Positions 2,681 through 43,575 of a stretch of DNA of 64,000 bases are shown piece by piece (position 1 is the stretch's first letter; every line of letters starts with the position of its first letter). The DNA is from Patescibacteria group bacterium (GTDB lineage: Bacteria > Patescibacteriota > UBA1384 > GWA2-35-9 > JBASTP01). The position numbers and the translations under genes are program-made. The notes under the pieces were generated by a model. It saw only the letters and a list, made by a program, of their open reading frames with translations. It made no database searches and was not told where the DNA came from. The stretch covers positions 4,441 through 68,440 of the forward strand of contig JBASTP010000009.1 in assembly GCA_049274945.1 (NCBI GenBank), given 5' to 3'.

Positions 2681-2763
2681 GCCCGCGTGGCGGAATGGCA
2701 GACGCGCTGGCTTCAGGAGCCAGTAGCCGCAAGGCTGTGGAGGTTCAACTCCTCCCGCGGGCA
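2681..2763 (+). tRNA. tRNA-Leu (anticodon CAG), type II with long variable arm
   Basis: Acceptor GCCCGCG/CGCGGGC with discriminator A; anticodon stem CTGGC/GCCAG and loop TTCAGGA; 15-nt variable arm; T-loop TTCAACT. Confidence 0.85.
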
Positions 2764-2795
2764 CATGCATAGGTGATCTCACTCTTGACAACCTG

Positions 2796-2822
2796 TATGA
2801 TAGTGTATGATACTATATGATA
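2796..2822. promoter_or_regulatory. Three direct TATGATA repeats at 10-bp phasing immediately upstream of the RHH-fusion gene (candidate operator)
   Basis: gTATGATAgtgTATGATActaTATGATAgtt ends 4 nt before the ATG at 2827. Confidence 0.4.
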
Positions 2823-2826
2823 GTTC

Positions 2827-3705
2827 ATGGAACGCGAACGGCTTACTATCACGCTGCGCAAGGACCTGCTTACCGAAGTCGACCGCACGATCGACGGTCA
2901 GCGCATCCGCAACCGATCTCACGCCATTGAGTTCCTTTTAGCGCACTCACTCACCCCGCAAGTCTCTCGGGCGATTGTGTTAGCCGGCGGCGCCGGCGTG
3001 AAGATGCGGCCACTCACCCTGGAGCTGCCCAAAGCAATGATTCCCGTGCGTGGCCGCCCGATCTTGGAGCATACCCTCGATACGCTCCGGCGGGCCGATA
3101 TTCGTAATGTTACGGTGCTCGTGGGCGCCCTGGGCGACAAGATCCGCAACCACTTTGGCGACGGTTCGGCGTTTGGTATGAAGATCGAATATGTGCAGGA
3201 AGGCAAGCGGTCGGGCACGGCCGGCGGGCTGCGCAAGGCAGCGAGCAAATCATCGGGCGAGCCGTCTTTTAGGCGAGCCTCGCCTGACGGCGGGCCGCTG
3301 CTTTTAATTTACGGCGACGTGCTGGCGGACATTGATCTTAAGGACATGATCGAGTACCACAAAGATTGCGGCGCCAAGGCCACTCTGGCGGTTACCTCGG
3401 TAGACAAGGCGACTGATTGGGGCATCGTGCGGCTGCACGGCACGCGGATTGTGAGCTTCGAGGAAAAACCAAAGAACCACGTTGGCCAGAGCCACTTGGT
3501 GAACGCCGGCGTGGCGGTGATCGAGCCAAAATTATTGGATGCTATGCCGAATGCCGGTTTTTCCATGCTCGAGCGCGACGTGTTTCCCAAGCTCGCGCGA
3601 GCCGGGCAGCTCGCCGGCTACCTCTTCGAAGGTCAGTGGTTCGATATTGCGACGCCGGAAATTTACGAAGAAGCTCTGAAGAACTGGCAGCCGGTGAAAG
3701 CGTAA
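2827..3705 (+). CDS. Sugar-phosphate nucleotidyltransferase (glucose/mannose-1-phosphate NTP-transferase family) with N-terminal ribbon-helix-helix (CopG-like) domain
   Basis: RAIVLAGGAGVKMRPLT...AMIPVRGRPILEH is the NTP-transferase G-loop; first ~45 aa (MERERLTITLRKDLLTEVDRTIDGQRIRNRSHAIEFLL) fit an RHH fold. Confidence 0.75.
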   Translation: MERERLTITLRKDLLTEVDRTIDGQRIRNRSHAIEFLLAHSLTPQVSRAIVLAGGAGVKMRPLTLELPKAMIPVRGRPILEHTLDTLRRADIRNVTVLVGALGDKIRNHFGDGSAFGMKIEYVQEGKRSGTAGGLRKAASKSSGEPSFRRASPDGGPLLLIYGDVLADIDLKDMIEYHKDCGAKATLAVTSVDKATDWGIVRLHGTRIVSFEEKPKNHVGQSHLVNAGVAVIEPKLLDAMPNAGFSMLERDVFPKLARAGQLAGYLFEGQWFDIATPEIYEEALKNWQPVKA

Positions 3706-3819: not shown

Positions 3820-4854
3820 GTGAATTTTCTGTCCAGTTTTTTAGGATGTGGGTGTAGGCAAGTGATCTGTAATTACCCGAGTCTGGCTGACATTCCACCT
3901 GAGGAGATCCCTAGGGTATTTGACCTCAGCCTTGAAGCAGAGGCGATCAGGGTCAAACCCGGAGGCTACAACGCCCATGTTATCATGATCCAGACCAAGC
4001 ACGGCAATCCTGATGTCGTCACCAAGCTTTATGGCGACAAAAAACGGGGATTCACCGAAGAGCAGGCAAGGATTGTTGCGTCTCACCTCGTCCACTATAG
4101 GATTTTGCTGACTGATTTCGGAATAGTCATCCCCCAGATGTGCGACATAGCAATCAGTGAGAACAGTGAGACAGGCATCTGGTGGGTGGTGGAAACCGAA
4201 CACTATTCCGGTTCAGACCAGCTGGCGGTGATCCGTACTGGAGCGCTCGAAAGGGTCGAGTGGGTGGTCAGGACCATGCTCGAGAGTTCGCTGCCATTTC
4301 TAACGACGGGCGAGCCGTTACCGATAGGTTTAGACCCACTACCTTCGAACTTCTGCATTTCTGAAGGTGAGACTGTCTTGACCTACGTTGATTTCATGCC
4401 GGTACGTTACGTCGAGGCCGGTGGCAGGGCGCTCGTTGAGTGGCCAGAGCCCACGACAGAACTCGGCTACAAGTTGGGGTTCTGGAAGCACTACATGGCA
4501 GTTGGTCTACTCACCGTAATGTTGACTCAGTTGTGTCGATATCGGCCTGAGTTCAGACCGCATTTCAAACGGGTCATCCTTGAGTTCCTACAACGCAATC
4601 GCGTTGGAAGGATTGCCGAGGAACTTGTCAGCTCACCAGGCTGGGAGATACGACGGACGCCAAACCTCCAAGAATTGGAAGAGCTGGTCGCTCAAAACGT
4701 CTACCACGCGCGTAATCTTGCGTGTGAATTGGCCTTCATAGGGCAGATCTCTCAGGAACAGCTCTCGGAGCTGTTCCGACTCTCTCACTTTGAAGACTCT
4801 TTTACTCTCCCGAAAATTCAATCAGTCGCGGCAGCGATTGCGGCCTTTCTCTGA
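3820..4854 (+). CDS. Hypothetical protein (possible kinase-like fold; weak)
   Basis: 344-aa ORF; followed by a convergent PHP gene; architecture resembles ORF 10980..11930. Confidence 0.45.
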   Translation: MNFLSSFLGCGCRQVICNYPSLADIPPEEIPRVFDLSLEAEAIRVKPGGYNAHVIMIQTKHGNPDVVTKLYGDKKRGFTEEQARIVASHLVHYRILLTDFGIVIPQMCDIAISENSETGIWWVVETEHYSGSDQLAVIRTGALERVEWVVRTMLESSLPFLTTGEPLPIGLDPLPSNFCISEGETVLTYVDFMPVRYVEAGGRALVEWPEPTTELGYKLGFWKHYMAVGLLTVMLTQLCRYRPEFRPHFKRVILEFLQRNRVGRIAEELVSSPGWEIRRTPNLQELEELVAQNVYHARNLACELAFIGQISQEQLSELFRLSHFEDSFTLPKIQSVAAAIAAFL

Positions 4855-4875: not shown

Positions 4876-5763
4876 TCAGCTGGCCACAACATTGTGGCCA
4901 GCTTTTTTGTCAAGGTAGGTCAAGAACCCAGTGAACTCATCCTCGACTAAGCCAGTTTGGCCTAGGCTGATTTCCGGGTGGTGGATTTCGCCGTGCCAGT
5001 CGCTGCCACCGGTAATTGCCAGGTTGTGGCTTTTGGCGAGCTCAATGAAGTGGGTTACATCAGATTTACTATGACTGCTATGACGTACCTCGAGGCCATC
5101 CAATCCCCCGACGGTTAGCTGTTTTACAAGTGAAACGACGATTTCCTTGACCTGTTCGGTATTGTGGCTGCTTCGTTTGACATCGCCTGGGTGCCCTAGT
5201 ACCGCAATCCCACCAGCCCGGTGTATCAGATCAACCACTTGTTGAGGTTTTGGTACCCAATCACCGTAGGGGAGCCAGGCTGGTCCAGAGCGGCCGATTA
5301 ACTTTTGAGCTTCTTTAAGATCGAGATCATGTCTGGTCATTAATTCCTGAACTATATTGTATCTAGTTACCAGTTTTCCTTGACGCCGCTTAAGGAGTTT
5401 ATTGAAATCGATGGTGTAGTCGGTATGGCGTTTGAGTTTTTCTACGATTTTTATTGCTCGTTGTTCATAGCCTTTCCGAATCGGCTCAATAGCTTCGGCC
5501 AGTAAGCCACCTTCAAATTTTTTCGAATAACCTAGGATATGAATATCGATGCCTTGATGTTGACTTGTGATTTCAATCCCTTGGCAAGTCCACAATCCTA
5601 ACCGAGCTGCCTCGGAAATGGCCTGATCGAAGTGACCAATGCTGTTGTGGTCCGTCAGGACGACACCCTTGAGCCCGGCCTTCTTCGCTCTCTCAAAAAC
5701 GGTGGTAACATTGTAATCACCATCTGAATAGTCGGAATGGCAATGGAGATCGTAGGGATACAT
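4876..5763 (-). CDS. PHP-domain metal-dependent phosphoesterase (TrpH/YciV-like)
   Basis: Starts MYPYDLHCHSDYSDGDY...GLKGVVLTDHNS; C-terminal GGSDWHG motif. The ORF extends upstream to 5985, but the PHP domain begins at the Met at 5763. Confidence 0.8.
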   Translation of the reverse strand: MYPYDLHCHSDYSDGDYNVTTVFERAKKAGLKGVVLTDHNSIGHFDQAISEAARLGLWTCQGIEITSQHQGIDIHILGYSKKFEGGLLAEAIEPIRKGYEQRAIKIVEKLKRHTDYTIDFNKLLKRRQGKLVTRYNIVQELMTRHDLDLKEAQKLIGRSGPAWLPYGDWVPKPQQVVDLIHRAGGIAVLGHPGDVKRSSHNTEQVKEIVVSLVKQLTVGGLDGLEVRHSSHSKSDVTHFIELAKSHNLAITGGSDWHGEIHHPEISLGQTGLVEDEFTGFLTYLDKKAGHNVVAS

Positions 5764-6002
5764 TGCCGAAATTATACCATAAACATTACAAAAAAATGAC
5801 CGGGCGGGGCAGGTCATGGGTGGTAGAGGAGAAAAGAGTGAAAGAAGATTGGCAGTCACAAATGGGCGAGCGCCAGGGAGGTTATGGCTTTGGCGTGATC
5901 GTGGTTCCCTGATGATTTTATCGAGTGTTCGGTTGACTCGGCAGGATTCGGCGTCCCATAATCCGGTTTGTAGGTCAACTCGCATTTTGCTATGCTAATC
6001 AA

Positions 6003-6950
6003 ATGATCATTACTACAAAAAAGCTTTTCGAAGTCGCGTATCAAAAGTTCGCGATTGGGGCGTACAACATCAATAACCTCGAGCAGGCGGTGGGGCTCTT
6101 TCGCGGCAATGTGGAATCCAAGGCGCCGTTTATCATTCAGCTCTCGCGGGGCGCCCGCAAGTATACCGACAAAAAATTGCTTGAGGCCATTATCCGCGAG
6201 TGCGACAAGCTGTACCCCGAAGCGATTTTTGCCGTCCACCTTGACCACGGCGACGAGGATGCTGCCCACGATGCGATTGATTCCGGCTTTTATTCATCGG
6301 TGATGATTGACGCCTCGGACAAGCCGTTTGAGGAAAACGTGGCGATTAGCAAGCGCGTGGTTGACCATGCTCATGCCAAAGGCTTGGTGGTGGAGGCAGA
6401 GCTCGGGCGGCTCGGTGGCGTGGAAGAGGACATTGTAGGCGATGAATCAAATGTATTCCTAACCGACCCTGCCCAGGCTCAAGAATTCGTTAAGCGTACG
6501 CAATGTGACTCCTTGGCGGTGGCGATTGGCACCTCGCACGGCGCGTACAAATTTGCCGGCGCTCAAAAAGTCCATTTTGACCGGCTCGAGGCGATTGCCA
6601 AGGAGTTGCCCGGTTTTCCCCTGGTAATGCACGGCAGCTCATCGGTGCCACAGGATGAAGTGGCGCGCGTGAACGCCGCGGGCGGAACCCTCAAGGGTGC
6701 TAAGGGCGTGGACGAAAACGATTTTGCCAAAGCGGCAAAACTGGGCGTTACCAAAGTCAACATCGACACCGATGGCCGCCTCCTATGGACCCGCGTTCAC
6801 CGCGAGTACTTCCGCGATCACCCCGAAGGGATTGACTTCCGCGACCCGGGCAAGATTTTTATAGCAGAGTACGCCAAGTTGATTGCTCACAAAAACGAGG
6901 TGCTCGGCTCGGCTGGAAAAATAGAAGAAGTTCGAAAGGCGTTGAGCTAA
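6003..6950 (+). CDS. fba: Fructose-1,6-bisphosphate aldolase, class II
   Basis: N-terminus KKLFEVAYQKFAIGAYNINNLEQ, AVHLDHGDE, and the GTSHGAYKF and MHGSS metal/phosphate-binding motifs. Confidence 0.9.
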   Translation: MIITTKKLFEVAYQKFAIGAYNINNLEQAVGLFRGNVESKAPFIIQLSRGARKYTDKKLLEAIIRECDKLYPEAIFAVHLDHGDEDAAHDAIDSGFYSSVMIDASDKPFEENVAISKRVVDHAHAKGLVVEAELGRLGGVEEDIVGDESNVFLTDPAQAQEFVKRTQCDSLAVAIGTSHGAYKFAGAQKVHFDRLEAIAKELPGFPLVMHGSSSVPQDEVARVNAAGGTLKGAKGVDENDFAKAAKLGVTKVNIDTDGRLLWTRVHREYFRDHPEGIDFRDPGKIFIAEYAKLIAHKNEVLGSAGKIEEVRKALS

Positions 6951-7361: not shown

Positions 7362-8156
7362 CTAATAGCTTAAAGCCTTAATGGCTTGCAGAATCTCTTG
7401 ATGGATCAAGCCATTACTCGCCGTGAGGGTAACTTTTTTTTCGGTATCCAGGCTGATTGGCTCGGAAACCGTTACCTTGCCGCCGGCCTCGGCAACCAGG
7501 AGCATACCGCCGGCGATATCATGGGTGTTGATCCGCGCCACGGTGAAAAAATCAACTCTGCCGGCGGCCACGCTGGCAAGGTTGAGCACGGTTGATCCGA
7601 GGACGCGAAACCGTTTGATTTGCGGGCCAAGGATGTTCAGGGCTTTAAGCAGGACGGCATTATTATGGCCGGCTTCGATGATCCCAAATGATTGGGCCAA
7701 TTTGTCAGTTTTTGACACTGTGATTTTGAATGGTTTGCCGTCGCCGCTTGCAAGGTAGGCACCCTTGCCTTTTTGGGCGTAAAACAGCTCACCTTCAACC
7801 GGCGCCGATATTGCGGCAACCACTGGCTGCTTGCCCTTGAGCAGGGCAATGGAAATGGAAAAGTAGGGCAGCCCCGCGGCAAAGTTACCGGTGCCGTCGA
7901 GTGGATCGATTACCCAGGTGTAAGGGGAATCTTTTTTAATAAAGCCGGTTTCCTCGGCGAGGATATTGTGGCTCCCAAAGTTTGCCTGGATAATTTTAAT
8001 AATTGCTCGCTCGGCCTCTAGATCGGCCTCGGTTACAATATCTTTCGGGTTACCACCTTTCATTTCAACCGTTTCGATCTTGCGGAAATGCTTAAGTAAA
8101 ATCTCCGCCGCTTTGTTTACGGCATTCAGGGCAACGTTGAGCTCGTTTGATACCAT
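7362..8156 (-). CDS. Inositol monophosphatase family protein (SuhB/CysQ-like)
   Basis: WVIDPLDGTGNFAAGLPYFSISIAL signature. Confidence 0.85.
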   Translation of the reverse strand: MVSNELNVALNAVNKAAEILLKHFRKIETVEMKGGNPKDIVTEADLEAERAIIKIIQANFGSHNILAEETGFIKKDSPYTWVIDPLDGTGNFAAGLPYFSISIALLKGKQPVVAAISAPVEGELFYAQKGKGAYLASGDGKPFKITVSKTDKLAQSFGIIEAGHNNAVLLKALNILGPQIKRFRVLGSTVLNLASVAAGRVDFFTVARINTHDIAGGMLLVAEAGGKVTVSEPISLDTEKKVTLTASNGLIHQEILQAIKALSY

Positions 8157-34276: not shown

Positions 34277-34317
34277 CTTTGCAGTGTACCGAAAAGTCCG
34301 TATACTTTACTAGACGT

Positions 34318-35259
34318 ATGACGATCTATGATCTACTCATTATTGGCGCCGGGCCAGCCGGCATCGAAGCCGCCCTCCAGGCCGCGGCGCGCGGTCTTAG
34401 CTATTTGCTAATCGATAAGTTCGACGCCGGCTCGCTGATTGAGCAGACCATGAATAACAAAAAGTTCTACCAGATTTATGGCCGAAACGTCGATCTTTTG
34501 AAAGGTACTCTTGCCTTTCCCGATCGTGCCAAAGGGTACGAGCTCGTTGCGCTCTGGAAGCAGCAAGTCGCGCCGCTCGCGTTCCACAAAAACGAGTCGC
34601 TCAAGACCATTACCCGTTCTGGCCAGGAACCATTTGTCGTTACTACCACCAAAGATCAGTATCAGGCCCGGTATGTGCTCCTTACGAGCGGCACGTTCGA
34701 ACATCACAAAACCCTCCAAGTGGATGGCGAGCACGGCAACCCAAAAGTCCACTACACCCTCGACTACTACCAGGACTACCGCGACCAGGCGGTGGTAGTG
34801 GTGGGCGGCGGCAACACGGCGCTCGAGACCGCGATTTATTTTGGCGATGCCAACAAGGTAACTTTGCTCGTTCGTCGGGACCGTTTTACCGAGAGCGCGA
34901 CCGAGGCAAACCAGATGGCGATCCGCGAGTTGGTACAAAAAGGTACGCTGCACGTGGTCTACCATGCCGCGGTTATGCAGATTACGCCCCAGGAGATAGC
35001 CGTCCAAACCGGCCAAGGCCCACTCACGCTACCGTACGATTTGCTTTTTGTTCATATTGGTTTTGAAAAGCCAACCGATTTTCTAGCAAGCCTTGGCCTG
35101 CAGGTGCGTAACGGCGAGCCGGTGTACAACGAAAAGTTTGAGTCTAACATCCCGGGCCTCTACATTGCCGGTGCGCTCACCGGCTCGGATTCAATCGTAG
35201 AATGCGCCAACCAAACCTACCAAGTCGTCCACCAGTTGCCTAATTCCCCTGGCATTTAG
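34318..35259 (+). CDS. Pyridine nucleotide-disulfide oxidoreductase (thioredoxin-reductase-like)
   Basis: YDLLIIGAGPAGIEAALQAA FAD site and VVVVGGGNTALETAIYF NAD(P) site; start placed at the ATG at 34318 (MTIYDLL). Confidence 0.75.
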   Translation: MTIYDLLIIGAGPAGIEAALQAAARGLSYLLIDKFDAGSLIEQTMNNKKFYQIYGRNVDLLKGTLAFPDRAKGYELVALWKQQVAPLAFHKNESLKTITRSGQEPFVVTTTKDQYQARYVLLTSGTFEHHKTLQVDGEHGNPKVHYTLDYYQDYRDQAVVVVGGGNTALETAIYFGDANKVTLLVRRDRFTESATEANQMAIRELVQKGTLHVVYHAAVMQITPQEIAVQTGQGPLTLPYDLLFVHIGFEKPTDFLASLGLQVRNGEPVYNEKFESNIPGLYIAGALTGSDSIVECANQTYQVVHQLPNSPGI

Positions 35260-41690: not shown

Positions 41691-42668
41691 ATGCTATCTA
41701 AATATCGTAAAATTTTGATGATTGTGCTTGCCGGAGTGGCCGCCCTCGCAGTTGTTTGGTACGTACTGCTCACCGCGCTCATGGCCCGGCCGGTGTCGGG
41801 TGAGATCAAAACCGAAGTGCTTGACATCAAGCCAGGCAGCTCGAGCTGGCAGACTGCCAAGGAGCTAAAACGCAAAAGGTTGATCCGATCGTCGGCGCAG
41901 TTTTGGTTTAATCTCAAGCTCACCGGCCGGGCAGTCCAAGCAGGCATCTACTATCTTTCGCCATCACAGTCCGGGCGGGAAATCATGCGGGTGATCGCCA
42001 AGGGTGAGGTCTCTGAATACCGCATTACCATCCCCGAGGGCTGGCGGATCGAGCAAATTGGGCAACTGCTTGAGAGCCGCAACATTGTTACTGCCGCGCC
42101 GTTCAATCAAGCTGCCCAGGGCAAAGAAGGCAAACTGTTCCCCGACACGTACCGGTTGAGCCTAGGAATCTCTGCGGCGGAGATTGTCGAAAAGATGACG
42201 GCTAATTTTGCCAAGCGAATTGAAGGGCTGAAACTAACGAACGAGCATCTGATTATCGCTTCGATTGTCGAGCGCGAGGCAAAGCATGATGAGGATCGGC
42301 CCAAAATGGCCGGGGTGTACAGTAATCGCCTTAAAATCGGCATGGCGCTCGAGGCCGATCCCACGGTGCAATATGCTCTCGATACTCAACGCCTTAAAGA
42401 CTCAACGCCTCAAGGCCTCAAAACCTTTAAGTTCTGGCAACCGCCTACCGCCGACCAAAACAAAAATTTTGAATCACTCTACAACACCTACCGGCATAAG
42501 GGGCTGCCGCCGGGTCCAATTTGCAATCCCGGCCTTAAATCGATTCAAGCCGCTCTGAACCCCGAAAAGCACGACTATTACTTTTTTTTCAACCTTCAGG
42601 ATGGTTCAACGATCTATAGTAAAACCCGCGACGAGCACGACGCCAACCGCAAGAAGTACGGGGTATGA
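41691..42668 (+). CDS. mltG: Endolytic murein transglycosylase MltG (YceG family)
   Basis: N-terminal TM; TIPEGWRIEQIG; YNTYRHKGLPPGPICNPG. Confidence 0.85.
   Translation: MLSKYRKILMIVLAGVAALAVVWYVLLTALMARPVSGEIKTEVLDIKPGSSSWQTAKELKRKRLIRSSAQFWFNLKLTGRAVQAGIYYLSPSQSGREIMRVIAKGEVSEYRITIPEGWRIEQIGQLLESRNIVTAAPFNQAAQGKEGKLFPDTYRLSLGISAAEIVEKMTANFAKRIEGLKLTNEHLIIASIVEREAKHDEDRPKMAGVYSNRLKIGMALEADPTVQYALDTQRLKDSTPQGLKTFKFWQPPTADQNKNFESLYNTYRHKGLPPGPICNPGLKSIQAALNPEKHDYYFFFNLQDGSTIYSKTRDEHDANRKKYGV
42621..42668. repeat. Direct repeat 1 (last 48 nt of mltG) bounding the AbiEii-module insertion
   Basis: aaaacccgcgacgagcacgacgccaaccgcaagaagtacggggtatga repeats, with ~5 differences, at 43574..43620. 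Confidence 0.6.
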
Positions 42669-42686
42669 TATGGTATAATTAAGACT

Positions 42687-42962
42687 ATGAAAACCGCCAA
42701 GTTGCCCTCGTTTTTCCAATCAATTTTTTGGGACACCCGGCTTGCAAATATTGACTACAAAAAACATTCCCGCTATGTGATCGAGCGTGTGCTCCAGTGG
42801 GGCAGGCCCCAGCACGTACGCTGGCTACTCGGCCACTATTCGAAACGCATGATTTTGCATGTGGCAAAAACCGGGCGGGAAGTCCGCCCAGAGCGCAAAT
42901 ATTTCTGGAAGTTCTATTTAACTCACCAACGAAAAAAACGAACAAAATTATATGCACACTGA
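42687..42962 (+). CDS. Small basic hypothetical protein, candidate partner (antitoxin/regulator) of the AbiEii-like gene
   Basis: 91-aa ORF directly upstream of, and overlapping by 11 nt, the AbiEii-like gene; no family recognised; AT-rich. Confidence 0.4.
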   Translation: MKTAKLPSFFQSIFWDTRLANIDYKKHSRYVIERVLQWGRPQHVRWLLGHYSKRMILHVAKTGREVRPERKYFWKFYLTHQRKKRTKLYAH

Positions 42963-43575
42963 AGCGCTTGCTCCAAAAACAAAAAAAGCTTTCGAGCTAC
43001 TTGGAACCGTGGAGATGATCCAACAATTTTATTTGGCAGGTGGTACTGCGGCCGCATTATATCTTGGCCATCGGTCCTCCCACGATCTTGATTTTTTTTC
43101 AACTCAAAGATTTGATTCGGAATTACTAAGACTTGAACTCGAAAAGGTAGGGAATCTTGCAATCGAATTCAAAAAAAAAGATACCTTGCTAGGAAAGTTT
43201 AACGGGGTAAAAATTAGTTTTTTTTATTACCCGTACCCCTTGATTCAACCGTTGGCTTACTTTGACTCAGTTGCTATCACCAATCAAAAAGATATTGCAG
43301 CAATGAAAATTAATGCGATTGCTGGTCGCGGGATTAAACGAGATTTCATTGATCTCTACTCACTCATGGAAGCCAATCATTGGCGATTGATTGAAGTAAT
43401 AGCGTGGTTCATGAAAAAATACAAAAAATCAAATTACAACATGGTGCACGTTCTCAATGCGTTAATTTATTTTGAGGATGCTGACAAAACCCCGATTCCA
43501 AAAATGATCACACCGATTGATTGGGGAAAGATTAAAGAATATTTCCGCGATGCGGTCAAAGAAATTGAACTGTAA
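42952..43575 (+). CDS. AbiEii/AbiGii-family nucleotidyltransferase (type IV toxin-antitoxin toxin-like; DUF1814)
   Basis: FYLAGGTAAALYLGHRSSHDLDFFS matches the family hallmark (GGTAL...R.SxDLDF); strongly AT-rich versus flanks. Confidence 0.7.
   Translation: MHTEALAPKTKKAFELLGTVEMIQQFYLAGGTAAALYLGHRSSHDLDFFSTQRFDSELLRLELEKVGNLAIEFKKKDTLLGKFNGVKISFFYYPYPLIQPLAYFDSVAITNQKDIAAMKINAIAGRGIKRDFIDLYSLMEANHWRLIEVIAWFMKKYKKSNYNMVHVLNALIYFEDADKTPIPKMITPIDWGKIKEYFRDAVKEIEL

What the first reader, a model, noticed from the sequence alone, without database searches (positions are those of the whole stretch)
2681..3705. Ribbon-helix-helix domain fused to a sugar-1-phosphate nucleotidyltransferase, preceded by three phased TATGATA repeats
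The first ~45 residues fit a CopG/Arc-type RHH DNA-binding fold, followed by a complete NTP-transferase domain. Four nucleotides upstream of the ATG lie three TATGATA repeats at exact 10-bp spacing (2796..2822). Tandem repeats of this kind are how RHH dimers bind DNA. Together these suggest an autoregulated enzyme-repressor fusion, located directly after tRNA-Leu(CAG).
Basis: partly seen in the sequence, partly recalled or inferred. Interest (0 to 1): 0.55.

Follow-up and report, generated by a model that had tools for sequence, protein, structure and literature searches.

The report
Self-regulating sugar-nucleotide enzyme fused to repressor
A sugar-activating enzyme of an uncultured Patescibacteria (CPR) bacterium carries a small NikR-like DNA-binding domain, and its own promoter holds three copies of that domain's likely binding site; comparative evidence suggests a widespread, undescribed repressor family that may also control sugar metabolism genes.

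Summary
tRNA-Leu(CAG) lies at 2681-2764, TTGACA at 2785-2790, and three TATGATA heptads at 2796, 2806 and 2816. The ATG is at 2827 and opens a 292-aa ORF.

Residues 1-45 are a ribbon-helix-helix (RHH) domain; the closest solved relative is the E. coli NikR RHH. Residues 49-285 are a sugar-1-phosphate nucleotidyltransferase (NTase) with most catalytic residues kept, but Lys at the canonical Arg position.

The fusion is conserved in more than 100 full-length Patescibacteria proteins and at 374 genomic stretches.

- In 32 of 80 orthologous loci, 2-3 (G)TATGAT units lie within 200 nt upstream of the gene, always at a 10-bp period.
- Two close relatives keep all three heptads while the spacers differ.
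- The same operator precedes neighbouring PFK, FBP aldolase/phosphatase, GAPDH-like, PfkB and DUF6206 kinase-like genes.
- A side clade has lost the catalytic motifs but keeps the RHH domain and its operator.

Best reading: an autorepressing enzyme-repressor fusion, comparable to PutA, BirA and NikR. It probably senses sugar phosphates or NDP-sugars and probably controls a small carbohydrate regulon.

DNA binding, the ligand and the enzyme activity are all untested. I found no description of this fusion in the searchable literature.

The parts
2681..2764 (+). tRNA-Leu(CAG). This is upstream context only and is not part of the regulatory unit.
   Evidence: ARAGORN and Rfam tRNA at 56.5 bits. 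It is present upstream in relative L082 but not in L083.
2785..2790 (+). -35 hexamer TTGACA of the gene's promoter.
   Evidence: Promoter scan. It is invariant in the alignment with L082 and L083. A TTGAC hexamer precedes the repeats in most orthologs.
2795..2822 (+). Putative operator: three palindromic heptads TATGATA (2796-2802, 2806-2812, 2816-2822) at a 10-bp period. The first two are preceded by G, giving GTATGA, the E. coli NikR half-site. The array overlaps the spacer, the -10 region and the likely transcription start.
   Evidence: for the sequence and the chance test. Conservation in orthologs. NikR operator GTATGA-N16-TCATAC: PMC7055735.
2806..2814 (+). Candidate -10 region: either TATGAT at 2806-2811 (15-nt spacer) or GATACT at 2809-2814 (18-nt spacer). 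Either choice leaves a leader of about 6-10 nt with no Shine-Dalgarno sequence.
   Evidence: Consensus scan and reading of the sequence. The transcription start is inferred only.
2827..3705 (+). CDS of the RHH-nucleotidyltransferase fusion, 292 aa. It is identical to an NCBI MAG protein annotated only as 'sugar phosphate nucleotidyltransferase [Patescibacteria group bacterium]'.
   Evidence: P0001, 100% identity.
2827..2961 (+). Ribbon-helix-helix DNA-binding domain, aa 1-45. The beta-strand is R5-L-T7-I-T9-L, followed by helices 12-21 and 30-42. A linker of about 5 residues follows.
2971..3681 (+). Sugar-1-phosphate nucleotidyltransferase domain, aa 49-285. The signature is GGAGVKMRPLTLELPK, and YGD, EEKPK and WFDIATPE are conserved. 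A lineage-specific low-confidence insertion covers aa 142-153.
   Evidence: Pfam NTP_transferase E = 1e-35; PDB sequence and fold matches; invariant columns; AF2 model.
3820..4854 (+). Conserved downstream neighbour, a DUF6206-like protein that is probably a protein-kinase-like-fold small-molecule kinase and a possible pathway partner. It has no operator of its own in this window.
   Evidence: The same family lies downstream in 12 of 47 orthologous loci and in L081-L083. DUF6206 hits in 10 of 12 members. A profile hits a protein kinase at E = 0.014 across the G-loop, the Lys and the D-x4-N loop.

Best explanation
The gene encodes a two-domain protein in which a NikR-like RHH domain is joined by a linker of about 5 residues to a sugar-1-phosphate nucleotidyltransferase.

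RHH domains pair into dimers whose two-stranded beta-sheet reads a major groove. Each dimer would sit on one palindromic TATGATA heptad. The enzyme domains would hold neighbouring dimers one helical turn apart, so that 2-3 dimers bind cooperatively on the same face of the DNA.

The array lies between the -35 hexamer and the start codon. Bound protein would therefore exclude RNA polymerase, and the gene would repress itself. Occupancy is probably tuned by what the enzyme domain binds: NTP, sugar-1-phosphate or the NDP-sugar product. This resembles how BirA, PutA and NikR couple ligand state to operator binding.

In related genomes the same operator precedes glycolytic and gluconeogenic genes and sugar-kinase genes. 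The family therefore probably acts as a carbohydrate-state regulator in Patescibacteria, not only as an autoregulator.

Shown here: the domain identities, the repeat array, and its family-specific conservation and promoter overlap. Inferred: DNA binding by this protein, repression, the ligand, and catalytic activity.
For: **RHH identity.**
- The profile hits the NikR RHH at E = 3e-4.
- RHH_1 is found in 30 of 32 members.
- The predicted topology is strand-helix-helix.
- PGAP names contig-end fragments of the same gene 'ribbon-helix-helix protein, CopG family'.

**Fusion conserved.**
- More than 100 full-length homologs of 275-290 aa carry the N-terminus RLTITLxKDLLxxVDxxIDGxRIRNRSHAIEYLL.
- 374 genomic stretches in the species-level genome collection encode it.

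**Operator specificity.**
- In 428 kb of orthologous loci, 33 of 51 exact TATGA-N5-TATGA pairs lie within 200 nt upstream of this gene, in 32 of 80 loci. All are at exactly 10 bp, although 9-11 bp was allowed.
- The palindromic-heptad test gives 25 of 80 against 7 of 284 control regions, p = 1e-12. Five of the seven controls are the same or a shared intergenic region.
- Relatives with 83% and 90% protein identity keep TTGACA and all three heptads while the spacers differ.
- A DNA-only scan of metagenomes for TTGAC-N4-18-GTATGAT-N3-GTATGAT returned 80 loci. In 16 of them this gene family follows directly.

**Match between protein and site.**
- The E. coli NikR half-site is GTATGA (PMC7055735).
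- The strand aligned to NikR's QRVTITL is ERLTITL.
- Some orthologs carry inverted GTATGATA-N2-TATCATAC instead of direct repeats, as expected for a symmetric dimer on a palindromic heptad.
- An unrelated stand-alone RHH/ParD protein with the strand ERLTITL has the same operator before its gene.

**Regulatory role is selected.** A side clade (L095, L107, L139, L152, L088) keeps the RHH domain and its own-promoter operator. It has deleted the MRPxTxExPK signature and mutated the metal-binding Asp.

**Regulon.**
- The operator precedes PfkB, PFK (three independent loci), FBPase_3, a type II GAPDH-like gene, a HAD hydrolase, DUF6206, and GH63-like and GH100-like hydrolases.
- Neighbouring genes are enriched for glpX, ROK, PFK, GAPDH, PGI and PGM.

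**No RNA-level alternative.** Rfam finds only the tRNA, and the fold z-score is 0.07.
Against: - No experiment exists. Every sequence comes from metagenome-assembled genomes.
- Only about 40% of orthologs have a recognisable operator at their own promoter. Microgenomates or Gottesmanbacteria versions sit directly behind uppS with an ordinary TATAAT promoter and no repeats.
- Within this 64-kb window no other convincing operator exists. The FBA gene at 6003 has none. The site at 42663 precedes a DUF6922-AbiEii pair and looks like an ordinary extended -10 promoter.
- The heptad resembles a -10 hexamer (TATGAT against TATAAT), so part of its conservation could be promoter function.
- The window's own N-terminus is below Pfam's gathering score, and Foldseek on the isolated domain was not significant.
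- The pseudoenzyme clade has the strand K-I-A-I-T but the same operator. A simple R/T/T reading code is therefore not sufficient.
- The canonical catalytic Arg of GxGTRL is Lys here, and Asn in 13 of 114 homologs, so activity is uncertain.
Confidence: 0.78

Rival explanations
1. The protein is essentially a transcription factor. On this view the nucleotidyltransferase domain in the window's protein is a ligand sensor and oligomerisation scaffold with little or no catalytic turnover, as in the pseudoenzyme clade. This changes the mechanism but not the DNA-binding claim.
For: - The position of the canonical catalytic Arg is Lys in 95, Asn in 13 and Arg in only 2 of 114 homologs.
- No NCBIfam equivalog model comes near its cut-off; the best is 146 bits against 440.
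- A related clade has clearly lost the catalytic motifs while keeping the RHH domain and its operator.
Against: - In the main clade, including this protein, R61, P62, P68, K69, D164, K214 and D273 are invariant, along with most other substrate-contacting positions.
- Lys can replace Arg as a phosphate ligand.
- The gene is often paired with a kinase-like gene or with uppS, which fits a working pathway enzyme.
Confidence: 0.3
2. The phased heptads are promoter elements (tandem -10-like hexamers or UP-like AT-rich DNA), or they are the site of a different regulator. The RHH domain would then serve another purpose, such as oligomerisation.
For: - TATGAT is one mismatch from TATAAT.
- In many orthologs one heptad coincides with the predicted -10.
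- About half of the orthologs lack the array.
- A conserved DnaA-box-like TGTGGATA lies beside the -35 in many of these promoters, which shows that other factors may act there.
Against: - Generic promoter elements would not be confined to this gene family and its sugar-metabolism neighbours: 25 of 80 against 7 of 284 control upstream regions.
- They would not keep an exact 10-bp period.
- They would not occur as inverted palindromes in some lineages.
- The half-site equals that of the closest solved RHH relative, NikR.
- The RHH domain is the most conserved part of the protein, with R28, R30, S31, H32, A33 and E35 invariant.
Confidence: 0.1
3. The N-terminal extension and the repeats are an annotation or assembly artefact, or a chance resemblance, and the protein is an ordinary nucleotidyltransferase.
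For: Public annotation gives only 'sugar phosphate nucleotidyltransferase', and precomputed Pfam lists no RHH domain.
Against: - The extension is present and highly conserved in more than 100 independent assemblies and at 374 genomic stretches.
- The repeat pattern occurred 0 times in 100 shuffles.
- Structure and profile evidence support an RHH fold.
Confidence: 0.02

Closest known systems
NikR (nickel-responsive repressor, E. coli; PDB 1q5v, 2hzv)
   Same: - It has an N-terminal RHH domain followed by a ligand-binding oligomerisation domain.
- Its operator half-site is GTATGA (PMC7055735), identical to the G+heptad core found here.
- The beta-strand motif R-x-T-I-T-L is shared.
   Different: - The C-terminal domain here is a nucleotidyltransferase, not the ACT-like nickel-binding tetramerisation domain.
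- The half-sites here are direct repeats, or a tight palindrome, one helical turn apart and in 2-3 copies. In NikR two inverted half-sites are separated by 16 bp.
- No metal-binding residues are present.
PutA (proline utilisation A; RHH domain PDB 2rbf)
   Same: - It is an RHH domain fused N-terminally to metabolic enzyme domains.
- It represses its own (put) promoter by binding several short repeated sites.
- Its substrate state controls repression.
   Different: - PutA's enzymes are proline dehydrogenase and P5C dehydrogenase, and its switch is redox-dependent membrane association.
- Its site is GTTGCA.
- PutA is more than 1300 aa, against 292 aa here.
- PutA is a proteobacterial protein, whereas this family is found in Patescibacteria.
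BirA and NadR (enzyme-repressors that make a nucleotidylated product)
   Same: They follow the same logic. An adenylyl- or nucleotidyl-transferring enzyme is also a repressor, and its substrate or product state sets operator occupancy. In BirA the signal is biotinyl-AMP. NadR contains an NMN adenylyltransferase domain.
   Different: - Their DNA-binding domains are winged-helix or HTH, not RHH.
- Their catalytic folds are unrelated to this one.
- Their regulons concern biotin or NAD, not sugars.
MurU, GDP-mannose pyrophosphorylase (VTC1/GMPPB) and tlr0611-type sugar-1-phosphate nucleotidyltransferases
   Same: - The fold and signature motifs of residues 49-285 match.
- Foldseek gives E of about 1e-22 to 1e-24, TM about 0.7 and 29-31% identity; phmmer gives E = 1e-25 to 1e-33.
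- MurU is paired with the anomeric sugar kinase AmgK (from my own knowledge). This resembles the pairing with a kinase-like DUF6206 gene here.
   Different: - None of these enzymes has a DNA-binding domain.
- This family has Lys in place of the canonical Arg of GxGTRL.
- It lacks the C-terminal left-handed beta-helix domain of GMPP.
- No NCBIfam model reaches its cut-off, so the sugar and nucleotide specificity are unknown.
Arc, CopG and omega-type RHH repressors
   Different: Those are small stand-alone proteins or antitoxins with no enzyme or sensor domain.

Membership tests
Ribbon-helix-helix (CopG/Arc/MetJ/NikR) DNA-binding domain superfamily | An N-terminal module of about 45 residues with beta-strand, helix, helix topology. 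| tested here: met
   AF2 gives an extended segment at residues 1-11, then H12-21 and H30-42, with pLDDT 85-94 for the isolated domain. The strand itself can only form in a dimer, so it is not scored as a strand in the monomer model.
Ribbon-helix-helix (CopG/Arc/MetJ/NikR) DNA-binding domain superfamily | Sequence or fold similarity to established RHH proteins. | tested here: met
   - The profile hits NikR at E = 3e-4 and CopG at E = 0.07.
- Pfam RHH_1 matches 30 of 32 members, best E = 9e-6. The window's own sequence scores 16.7 bits, below the 20.5-bit cut-off.
- Foldseek alone was not significant.
Ribbon-helix-helix (CopG/Arc/MetJ/NikR) DNA-binding domain superfamily | Dimerisation into a two-stranded antiparallel sheet that binds repeated DNA sub-sites. 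| not testable with these tools
   There is only indirect support. Palindromic heptads at a 10-bp period are conserved at the family's own promoters. No multimer or DNA-complex prediction was available.
Sugar-1-phosphate nucleotidyltransferase (Pfam NTP_transferase, PF00483) | Rossmann-like alpha/beta fold and a domain match above the curated threshold. | tested here: met
   PF00483 scores 124 bits against a cut-off of 21.2. Foldseek gives TM about 0.7 to 8x7s, 7x8j and 4y7t.
Sugar-1-phosphate nucleotidyltransferase (Pfam NTP_transferase, PF00483) | Catalytic signature G-x-G-x-R...P-K together with the metal and sugar-binding Asp, Glu and Lys residues. | tested here: inconclusive
   The signature here is GGAGVKMRPLTLELPK, with Lys at the canonical Arg position. 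Across 114 homologs that position is K in 95, N in 13 and R in 2. R61, P68, K69, D164, K214 and D273 are invariant.
Sugar-1-phosphate nucleotidyltransferase (Pfam NTP_transferase, PF00483) | Catalysis of NTP + sugar-1-phosphate to NDP-sugar + PPi, with a defined specificity. | not testable with these tools
   No NCBIfam equivalog reaches its cut-off. The mannose-1-P guanylyltransferase model scores 146 against 440, and MurU scores 119 against 250.
NikR family | A C-terminal ACT-like tetramerisation domain with a His/Cys nickel site. | tested here: not met
   The C-terminal domain is a nucleotidyltransferase. Only the RHH module and the half-site resemble NikR, so this protein is not a NikR family member.
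Autoregulated enzyme-repressor fusions (PutA type) | A DNA-binding domain and an enzyme in one polypeptide, with the cognate repeated sites in the protein's own promoter. | tested here: met
   The architecture is shown. The repeats overlap this gene's own promoter and are conserved in orthologs. Actual repression was not tested.

The most novel reading that the evidence does not exclude
The family may be a previously unrecognised, lineage-wide regulator of central carbohydrate metabolism in Patescibacteria. In this reading an NDP-sugar pyrophosphorylase reads its own substrate or product pool. Through a NikR-like RHH domain it then represses its own gene together with PFK, FBP aldolase/phosphatase, GAPDH, sugar kinases and glycoside hydrolases. 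Some lineages would have converted it into a pure pseudoenzyme sensor. That would give the first defined transcription factor, operator and regulon for these largely uncultured bacteria with reduced genomes.
Probability: 0.4. Interest if true: 0.8.

Novelty: new variant of a known kind. Interest (0 to 1): 0.66.

Why it matters
Transcriptional regulation in Patescibacteria (CPR) is almost uncharted. These organisms are mostly uncultured and have small genomes.

This finding offers a conserved protein, a precise operator ((G)TATGAT repeated at 10 bp) and a candidate regulon of glycolytic, gluconeogenic and sugar-salvage genes. All of it can be tested in vitro with a 292-aa protein and a 40-bp DNA fragment.

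It adds a new architecture, RHH plus sugar nucleotidyltransferase, to the short list of enzymes that are also repressors (PutA, BirA, NadR). It also shows both the bifunctional form and the pseudoenzyme form within one family, which illustrates how metabolic enzymes can become sensors.

On the practical side, public annotation misses the DNA-binding domain entirely. Hundreds of these genes are labelled only as nucleotidyltransferases.

Tried and rejected
- **RNA-level explanation** (riboswitch or leader structure): Rfam at a permissive E-value finds only the tRNA. The fold of 2765-2860 is no better than shuffles, z = 0.07. Rejected.
- **Other operators in the window:**
  - 42663 (GTATGATATGGTATAAT) precedes a DUF6922-AbiEii toxin-antitoxin pair and looks like an ordinary extended -10 promoter.
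  - 34316 overlaps the start codon of a pyridine-nucleotide oxidoreductase gene.
  - The class II FBA gene at 6003 has no heptads upstream.
  - No regulon member besides the gene itself could be shown in this window.
- **Literature:** three searches found no paper on an RHH-nucleotidyltransferase fusion in CPR or on DUF6206. I could not retrieve the NikR-DNA complex paper to cite the base-contacting residues Arg3, Thr5 and Thr7. That detail therefore rests on my own recollection.
- **Searches that added little:**
  - The search for homologous proteins with the 49-aa profile returned only contig-end fragments.
  - The same tool with the DUF6206-like ORF returned only the ORF itself.
- **tRNA adjacency as a functional feature:** rejected, because it is not conserved in the 90%-identical relative L083.
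Full report
**1. Observation**

- tRNA-Leu(CAG) occupies 2681-2764 (ARAGORN; Rfam).
- A perfect TTGACA lies at 2785-2790.
- TATGATA occurs exactly at 2796, 2806 and 2816. TRF reports period 10 and 3.1 copies.
- Four bases after the last heptad, the ATG at 2827 opens a 292-aa ORF that ends at 3705.

The array is not a chance event. The three-heptad pattern, even with 3 mismatches allowed, never occurred in 100 dinucleotide-preserving shuffles.

The heptad is a palindrome around its central G/C. The opposite strand matches the pattern with exactly three mismatches, one at the centre of each heptad.

The window comes from a Patescibacteria (CPR) metagenome-assembled genome. The protein is 100% identical to an NCBI entry annotated only as 'sugar phosphate nucleotidyltransferase'.

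**2. The protein**

Residues 49-285 are a nucleotidyltransferase domain.
- They match Pfam NTP_transferase at E = 1e-35.
- The nearest solved relatives by sequence and fold are a cyanobacterial UGPase-like protein (8x7s), plant and human GDP-mannose pyrophosphorylases, and MurU.
- No NCBIfam equivalog model comes near its cut-off, so the sugar and nucleotide specificity are open.

Residues 1-45 are an RHH domain.
- The window's own sequence scores only 16.7 bits against RHH_1 (cut-off 20.5). However, 30 of 32 family N-termini hit RHH_1, best E = 9e-6.
- A family profile hits the RHH domain of E. coli NikR at E = 3e-4 over 43 residues, and also CopG.
- AlphaFold2 predicts an extended segment followed by helices 12-21 and 30-42, with high confidence.
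- Foldseek ranked RHH proteins first but without significance.

**3. The fusion is a family**

The full-length search returned more than 100 proteins of 275-290 aa covering 98-100% of the query. All come from Patescibacteria lineages, and all share the N-terminus RLTITLxKDLLxxVDxxIDGxRIRNRSHAIEYLL.

Within the family alignment, R28, R30, S31, H32, A33 and E35 of the RHH domain are invariant, as are the main nucleotidyltransferase positions.

A back-translated IR[NS]RSHAIE pattern found 374 confirmed stretches in the species-level genome collection.

**4. The repeats are conserved and family-specific**

Many orthologs carry two or three (G)TATGAT units directly upstream, after a TTGAC -35 hexamer.
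- Across 80 orthologous loci (428 kb, both strands) there are 51 exact TATGA-N(4-6)-TATGA pairs. Of these, 33 lie within 200 nt upstream of this gene, in 32 loci. All 33 have a 10-bp period.
- A palindromic-heptad test gives 25 of 80 own promoters against 7 of 284 control upstream regions (Fisher p = 1e-12). Five of the seven controls are the same or a divergent shared intergenic region, and the other two are PFK genes.
- In relatives with 83% and 90% protein identity, TTGACA and all three heptads are conserved while the inter-heptad bases and the flanks differ. One of these relatives lacks the tRNA.
- Some lineages have an inverted arrangement, GTATGATA-N2-TATCATAC, instead of direct repeats. 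This is expected if a two-fold symmetric dimer reads a palindromic heptad.
- An independent DNA-only scan of 241 million metagenome records used the pattern TTGAC-N(4-18)-GTATGAT-N3-GTATGAT. It returned 80 loci, and in 16 of them an RHH-nucleotidyltransferase gene follows directly.

**5. Link between domain and site**

The E. coli NikR operator is GTATGA-N16-TCATAC (PMC7055735). That half-site equals the G+heptad core found here.

The strand aligned to NikR's QRVTITL is ERLTITL. From memory, the NikR-DNA complex (2hzv) uses Arg3, Thr5 and Thr7 of that strand for base contacts. I could not retrieve a paper to cite this.

An unrelated stand-alone RHH/ParD protein on a 67% GC contig has the strand ERLTITL and the same GTATGAT-N3-GTATGAT site before its gene.

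There is one caveat. The pseudoenzyme clade has the strand K-I-A-I-T but the same operator.

**6. Promoter geometry**

Three arrangements are seen:
- the first heptad coincides with the -10 (TTGACA-N16/17-TATGAT);
- the heptads straddle the -10 (TTGACN-N10-TATGAT, the commonest form);
- as in this window, the first heptad lies in the spacer and the second at the -10.

In every case the array overlaps the core promoter, which is the arrangement expected for a repressor.

In this window the leader would be 10 nt or shorter and has no Shine-Dalgarno sequence. This is inferred, since no transcription start data exist.

**7. Beyond autoregulation**

The same operator precedes other genes in the fetched loci:
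- a PfkB kinase (L005);
- PFK (L036, L045, L113);
- FBP aldolase/phosphatase and a type II GAPDH-like gene (L047);
- a HAD hydrolase (L057);
- the DUF6206 family (L026, L102, L116);
- alanine dehydrogenase (L120);
- GH63/trehalase-like and GH100-like hydrolases (L157, L144).

Neighbouring genes of the orthologs are enriched for glpX FBPase, ROK, PfkB, PFK, GAPDH, PGI, PGM and, in Microgenomates, uppS.

In this window and its close relatives the gene order is RHH-NTase, then DUF6206, then PHP on the minus strand, then class II FBA.

The DUF6206-like neighbour appears to be a kinase.
- It has a near-invariant Lys, a D-x4-N loop and a further invariant Asp.
- Its 89-sequence profile aligns to the G-loop, the Lys and the catalytic loop of a protein kinase at E = 0.014, and to choline kinase at E = 0.21.
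- I read it as a protein-kinase-like-fold small-molecule kinase. It could feed the nucleotidyltransferase, as AmgK feeds MurU. This is inference.

**8. A pseudoenzyme clade**

Five proteins recovered by the operator scan (L095, L107, L139, L152, L088) keep the RHH domain and the operator at their own promoter. Their enzyme domain is degraded: a 10-residue deletion removes MRPxTxExPK, WFDxGTP becomes WCNVRN, and YGD becomes YCH in two of them.

The DNA-binding role is therefore maintained where catalysis is lost. This argues that regulation is a selected function of the family.

In the main clade the catalytic positions are conserved. The exception is the canonical Arg, which is Lys in 95, Asn in 13 and Arg in 2 of 114 homologs.

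**9. Mechanism proposed**

RHH dimers sit on successive heptads one helical turn apart, held by nucleotidyltransferase oligomers through a 5-residue linker. Cooperative occupancy blocks RNA polymerase. Substrate or product binding in the enzyme domain changes occupancy.

The domains, the array and its specific conservation are shown. Binding, the direction of regulation, the effector and catalysis are inferred.

Confidence is 0.78 that this is an autoregulatory DNA-binding fusion acting on the heptads. It is about 0.4 for the wider carbohydrate-regulon reading.

**10. Comparison and novelty**

- The protein works like NikR in its RHH domain and half-site. It is not a NikR family member, because it lacks the nickel-binding domain.
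- It works like PutA in being an RHH-enzyme autorepressor.
- It works like BirA and NadR in being a nucleotidyl-transferring enzyme-repressor, but its DNA-binding fold differs.
- Three literature searches found no description of this architecture, and public annotation omits the RHH domain.

I class it as a new variant of a known kind.

**11. Weaknesses**

- Only about 40% of orthologs show the operator at their own promoter.
- No second site could be shown in this 64-kb window.
- The heptad resembles a -10 box.
- All data come from metagenomes.

Noticed in passing
L011, L015, L020, L021, L038, L050, L066, L072 (own promoters); L026, L047, L057 (neighbour promoters); window 53917 only: A DnaA-box-like octamer, TGTGGATA(A), or its complement, sits 5-6 nt upstream of the -35 hexamer in many operator-bearing promoters. 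Of its 34 occurrences in 428 kb, 15 lie within 250 nt upstream of the RHH-NTase gene, and several more lie before the operator-bearing neighbour genes. It is absent from this window's promoter. It may be a second factor's site or a DnaA-dependent input.
   Followed up: partly
L095:726-1514(-), L107:9849-10673, L139:7293-8105, L152:2614-3459(-), L088:7702-8334: A side clade of the family keeps the RHH domain and its own-promoter operator but has lost the nucleotide-binding signature (a 10-aa deletion of MRPxTxExPK) and the metal-binding Asp. It looks like a pseudoenzyme-type repressor.
   Followed up: partly
window 3820-4854 (+): This conserved downstream partner gene belongs to DUF6206, which has no annotated function. 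It has a near-invariant Lys, a D-x4-N loop and a second invariant Asp, and a borderline profile match to protein kinases (E = 0.014) and choline kinase. It is probably a kinase-like-fold small-molecule kinase. NCBI calls its start 14 codons further downstream, giving 330 aa.
   Followed up: partly
L141:4648-4929(-) and the operator 23 nt upstream: On a 67% GC metagenome contig, a stand-alone 94-aa RHH_1/ParD-type protein has the strand ERLTITL. It is preceded by TTGAC-N-GGTATGATCAAGTATGAT, the same site as in the Patescibacteria family.
   Followed up: partly
window 42663-42679 (+), ORFs 42687-42962 and 42952-43575: GTATGATATGGTATAAT lies 8 nt upstream of a DUF6922 plus AbiEii (type IV toxin-antitoxin nucleotidyltransferase) gene pair. 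It is most likely an ordinary extended -10 promoter that happens to resemble the operator.
   Followed up: partly
window 34316-34332 (+): The operator-like GTATGACGATCTATGAT overlaps the probable ATG start (MTIYDLLIIGAGPAG...) of a pyridine nucleotide-disulphide oxidoreductase gene. It has one mismatch in each half, and its significance is unknown.
   Followed up: no
L036, L045, L055, L061, L077, L078 (between the operator and the ATG): In a subset of orthologs the operator lies 70-180 nt upstream of the start codon. The long leader contains lineage-specific hairpins, for example L061 GGTAGGTTGGTAGG...CCTACC and L045 GTGAACAAACATTGTTTGTTCAC, which may form a second regulatory layer.
   Followed up: no
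window 6003-6950 (+), 7362-8156 (-), 4876-5985 (-): A class II fructose-bisphosphate aldolase, an inositol-monophosphatase/FBPase-family protein and a PHP-domain protein lie just downstream, in an order shared with close relatives. None has the heptad array upstream.
   Followed up: partly
window 3250-3285 (aa 142-153 of the fusion protein): The nucleotidyltransferase domain carries an insertion of about 11 residues (SKSSGEPSFRRASPDGG) with pLDDT below 50. It appears at full length only in the window's protein; the next relatives are 285-288 aa, and most homologs are 275-282 aa against 292 aa here.
   Followed up: no
L001, L004, L006, L007, L014, L016, L041, L049, L065, L075: In Microgenomates or Gottesmanbacteria-type genomes the gene follows undecaprenyl-diphosphate synthase (uppS) after a gap of 16-130 nt. 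It has no heptad array, only a TATAAT-like box inside the end of uppS. This suggests a different regulatory arrangement, or targets located elsewhere.
   Followed up: partly
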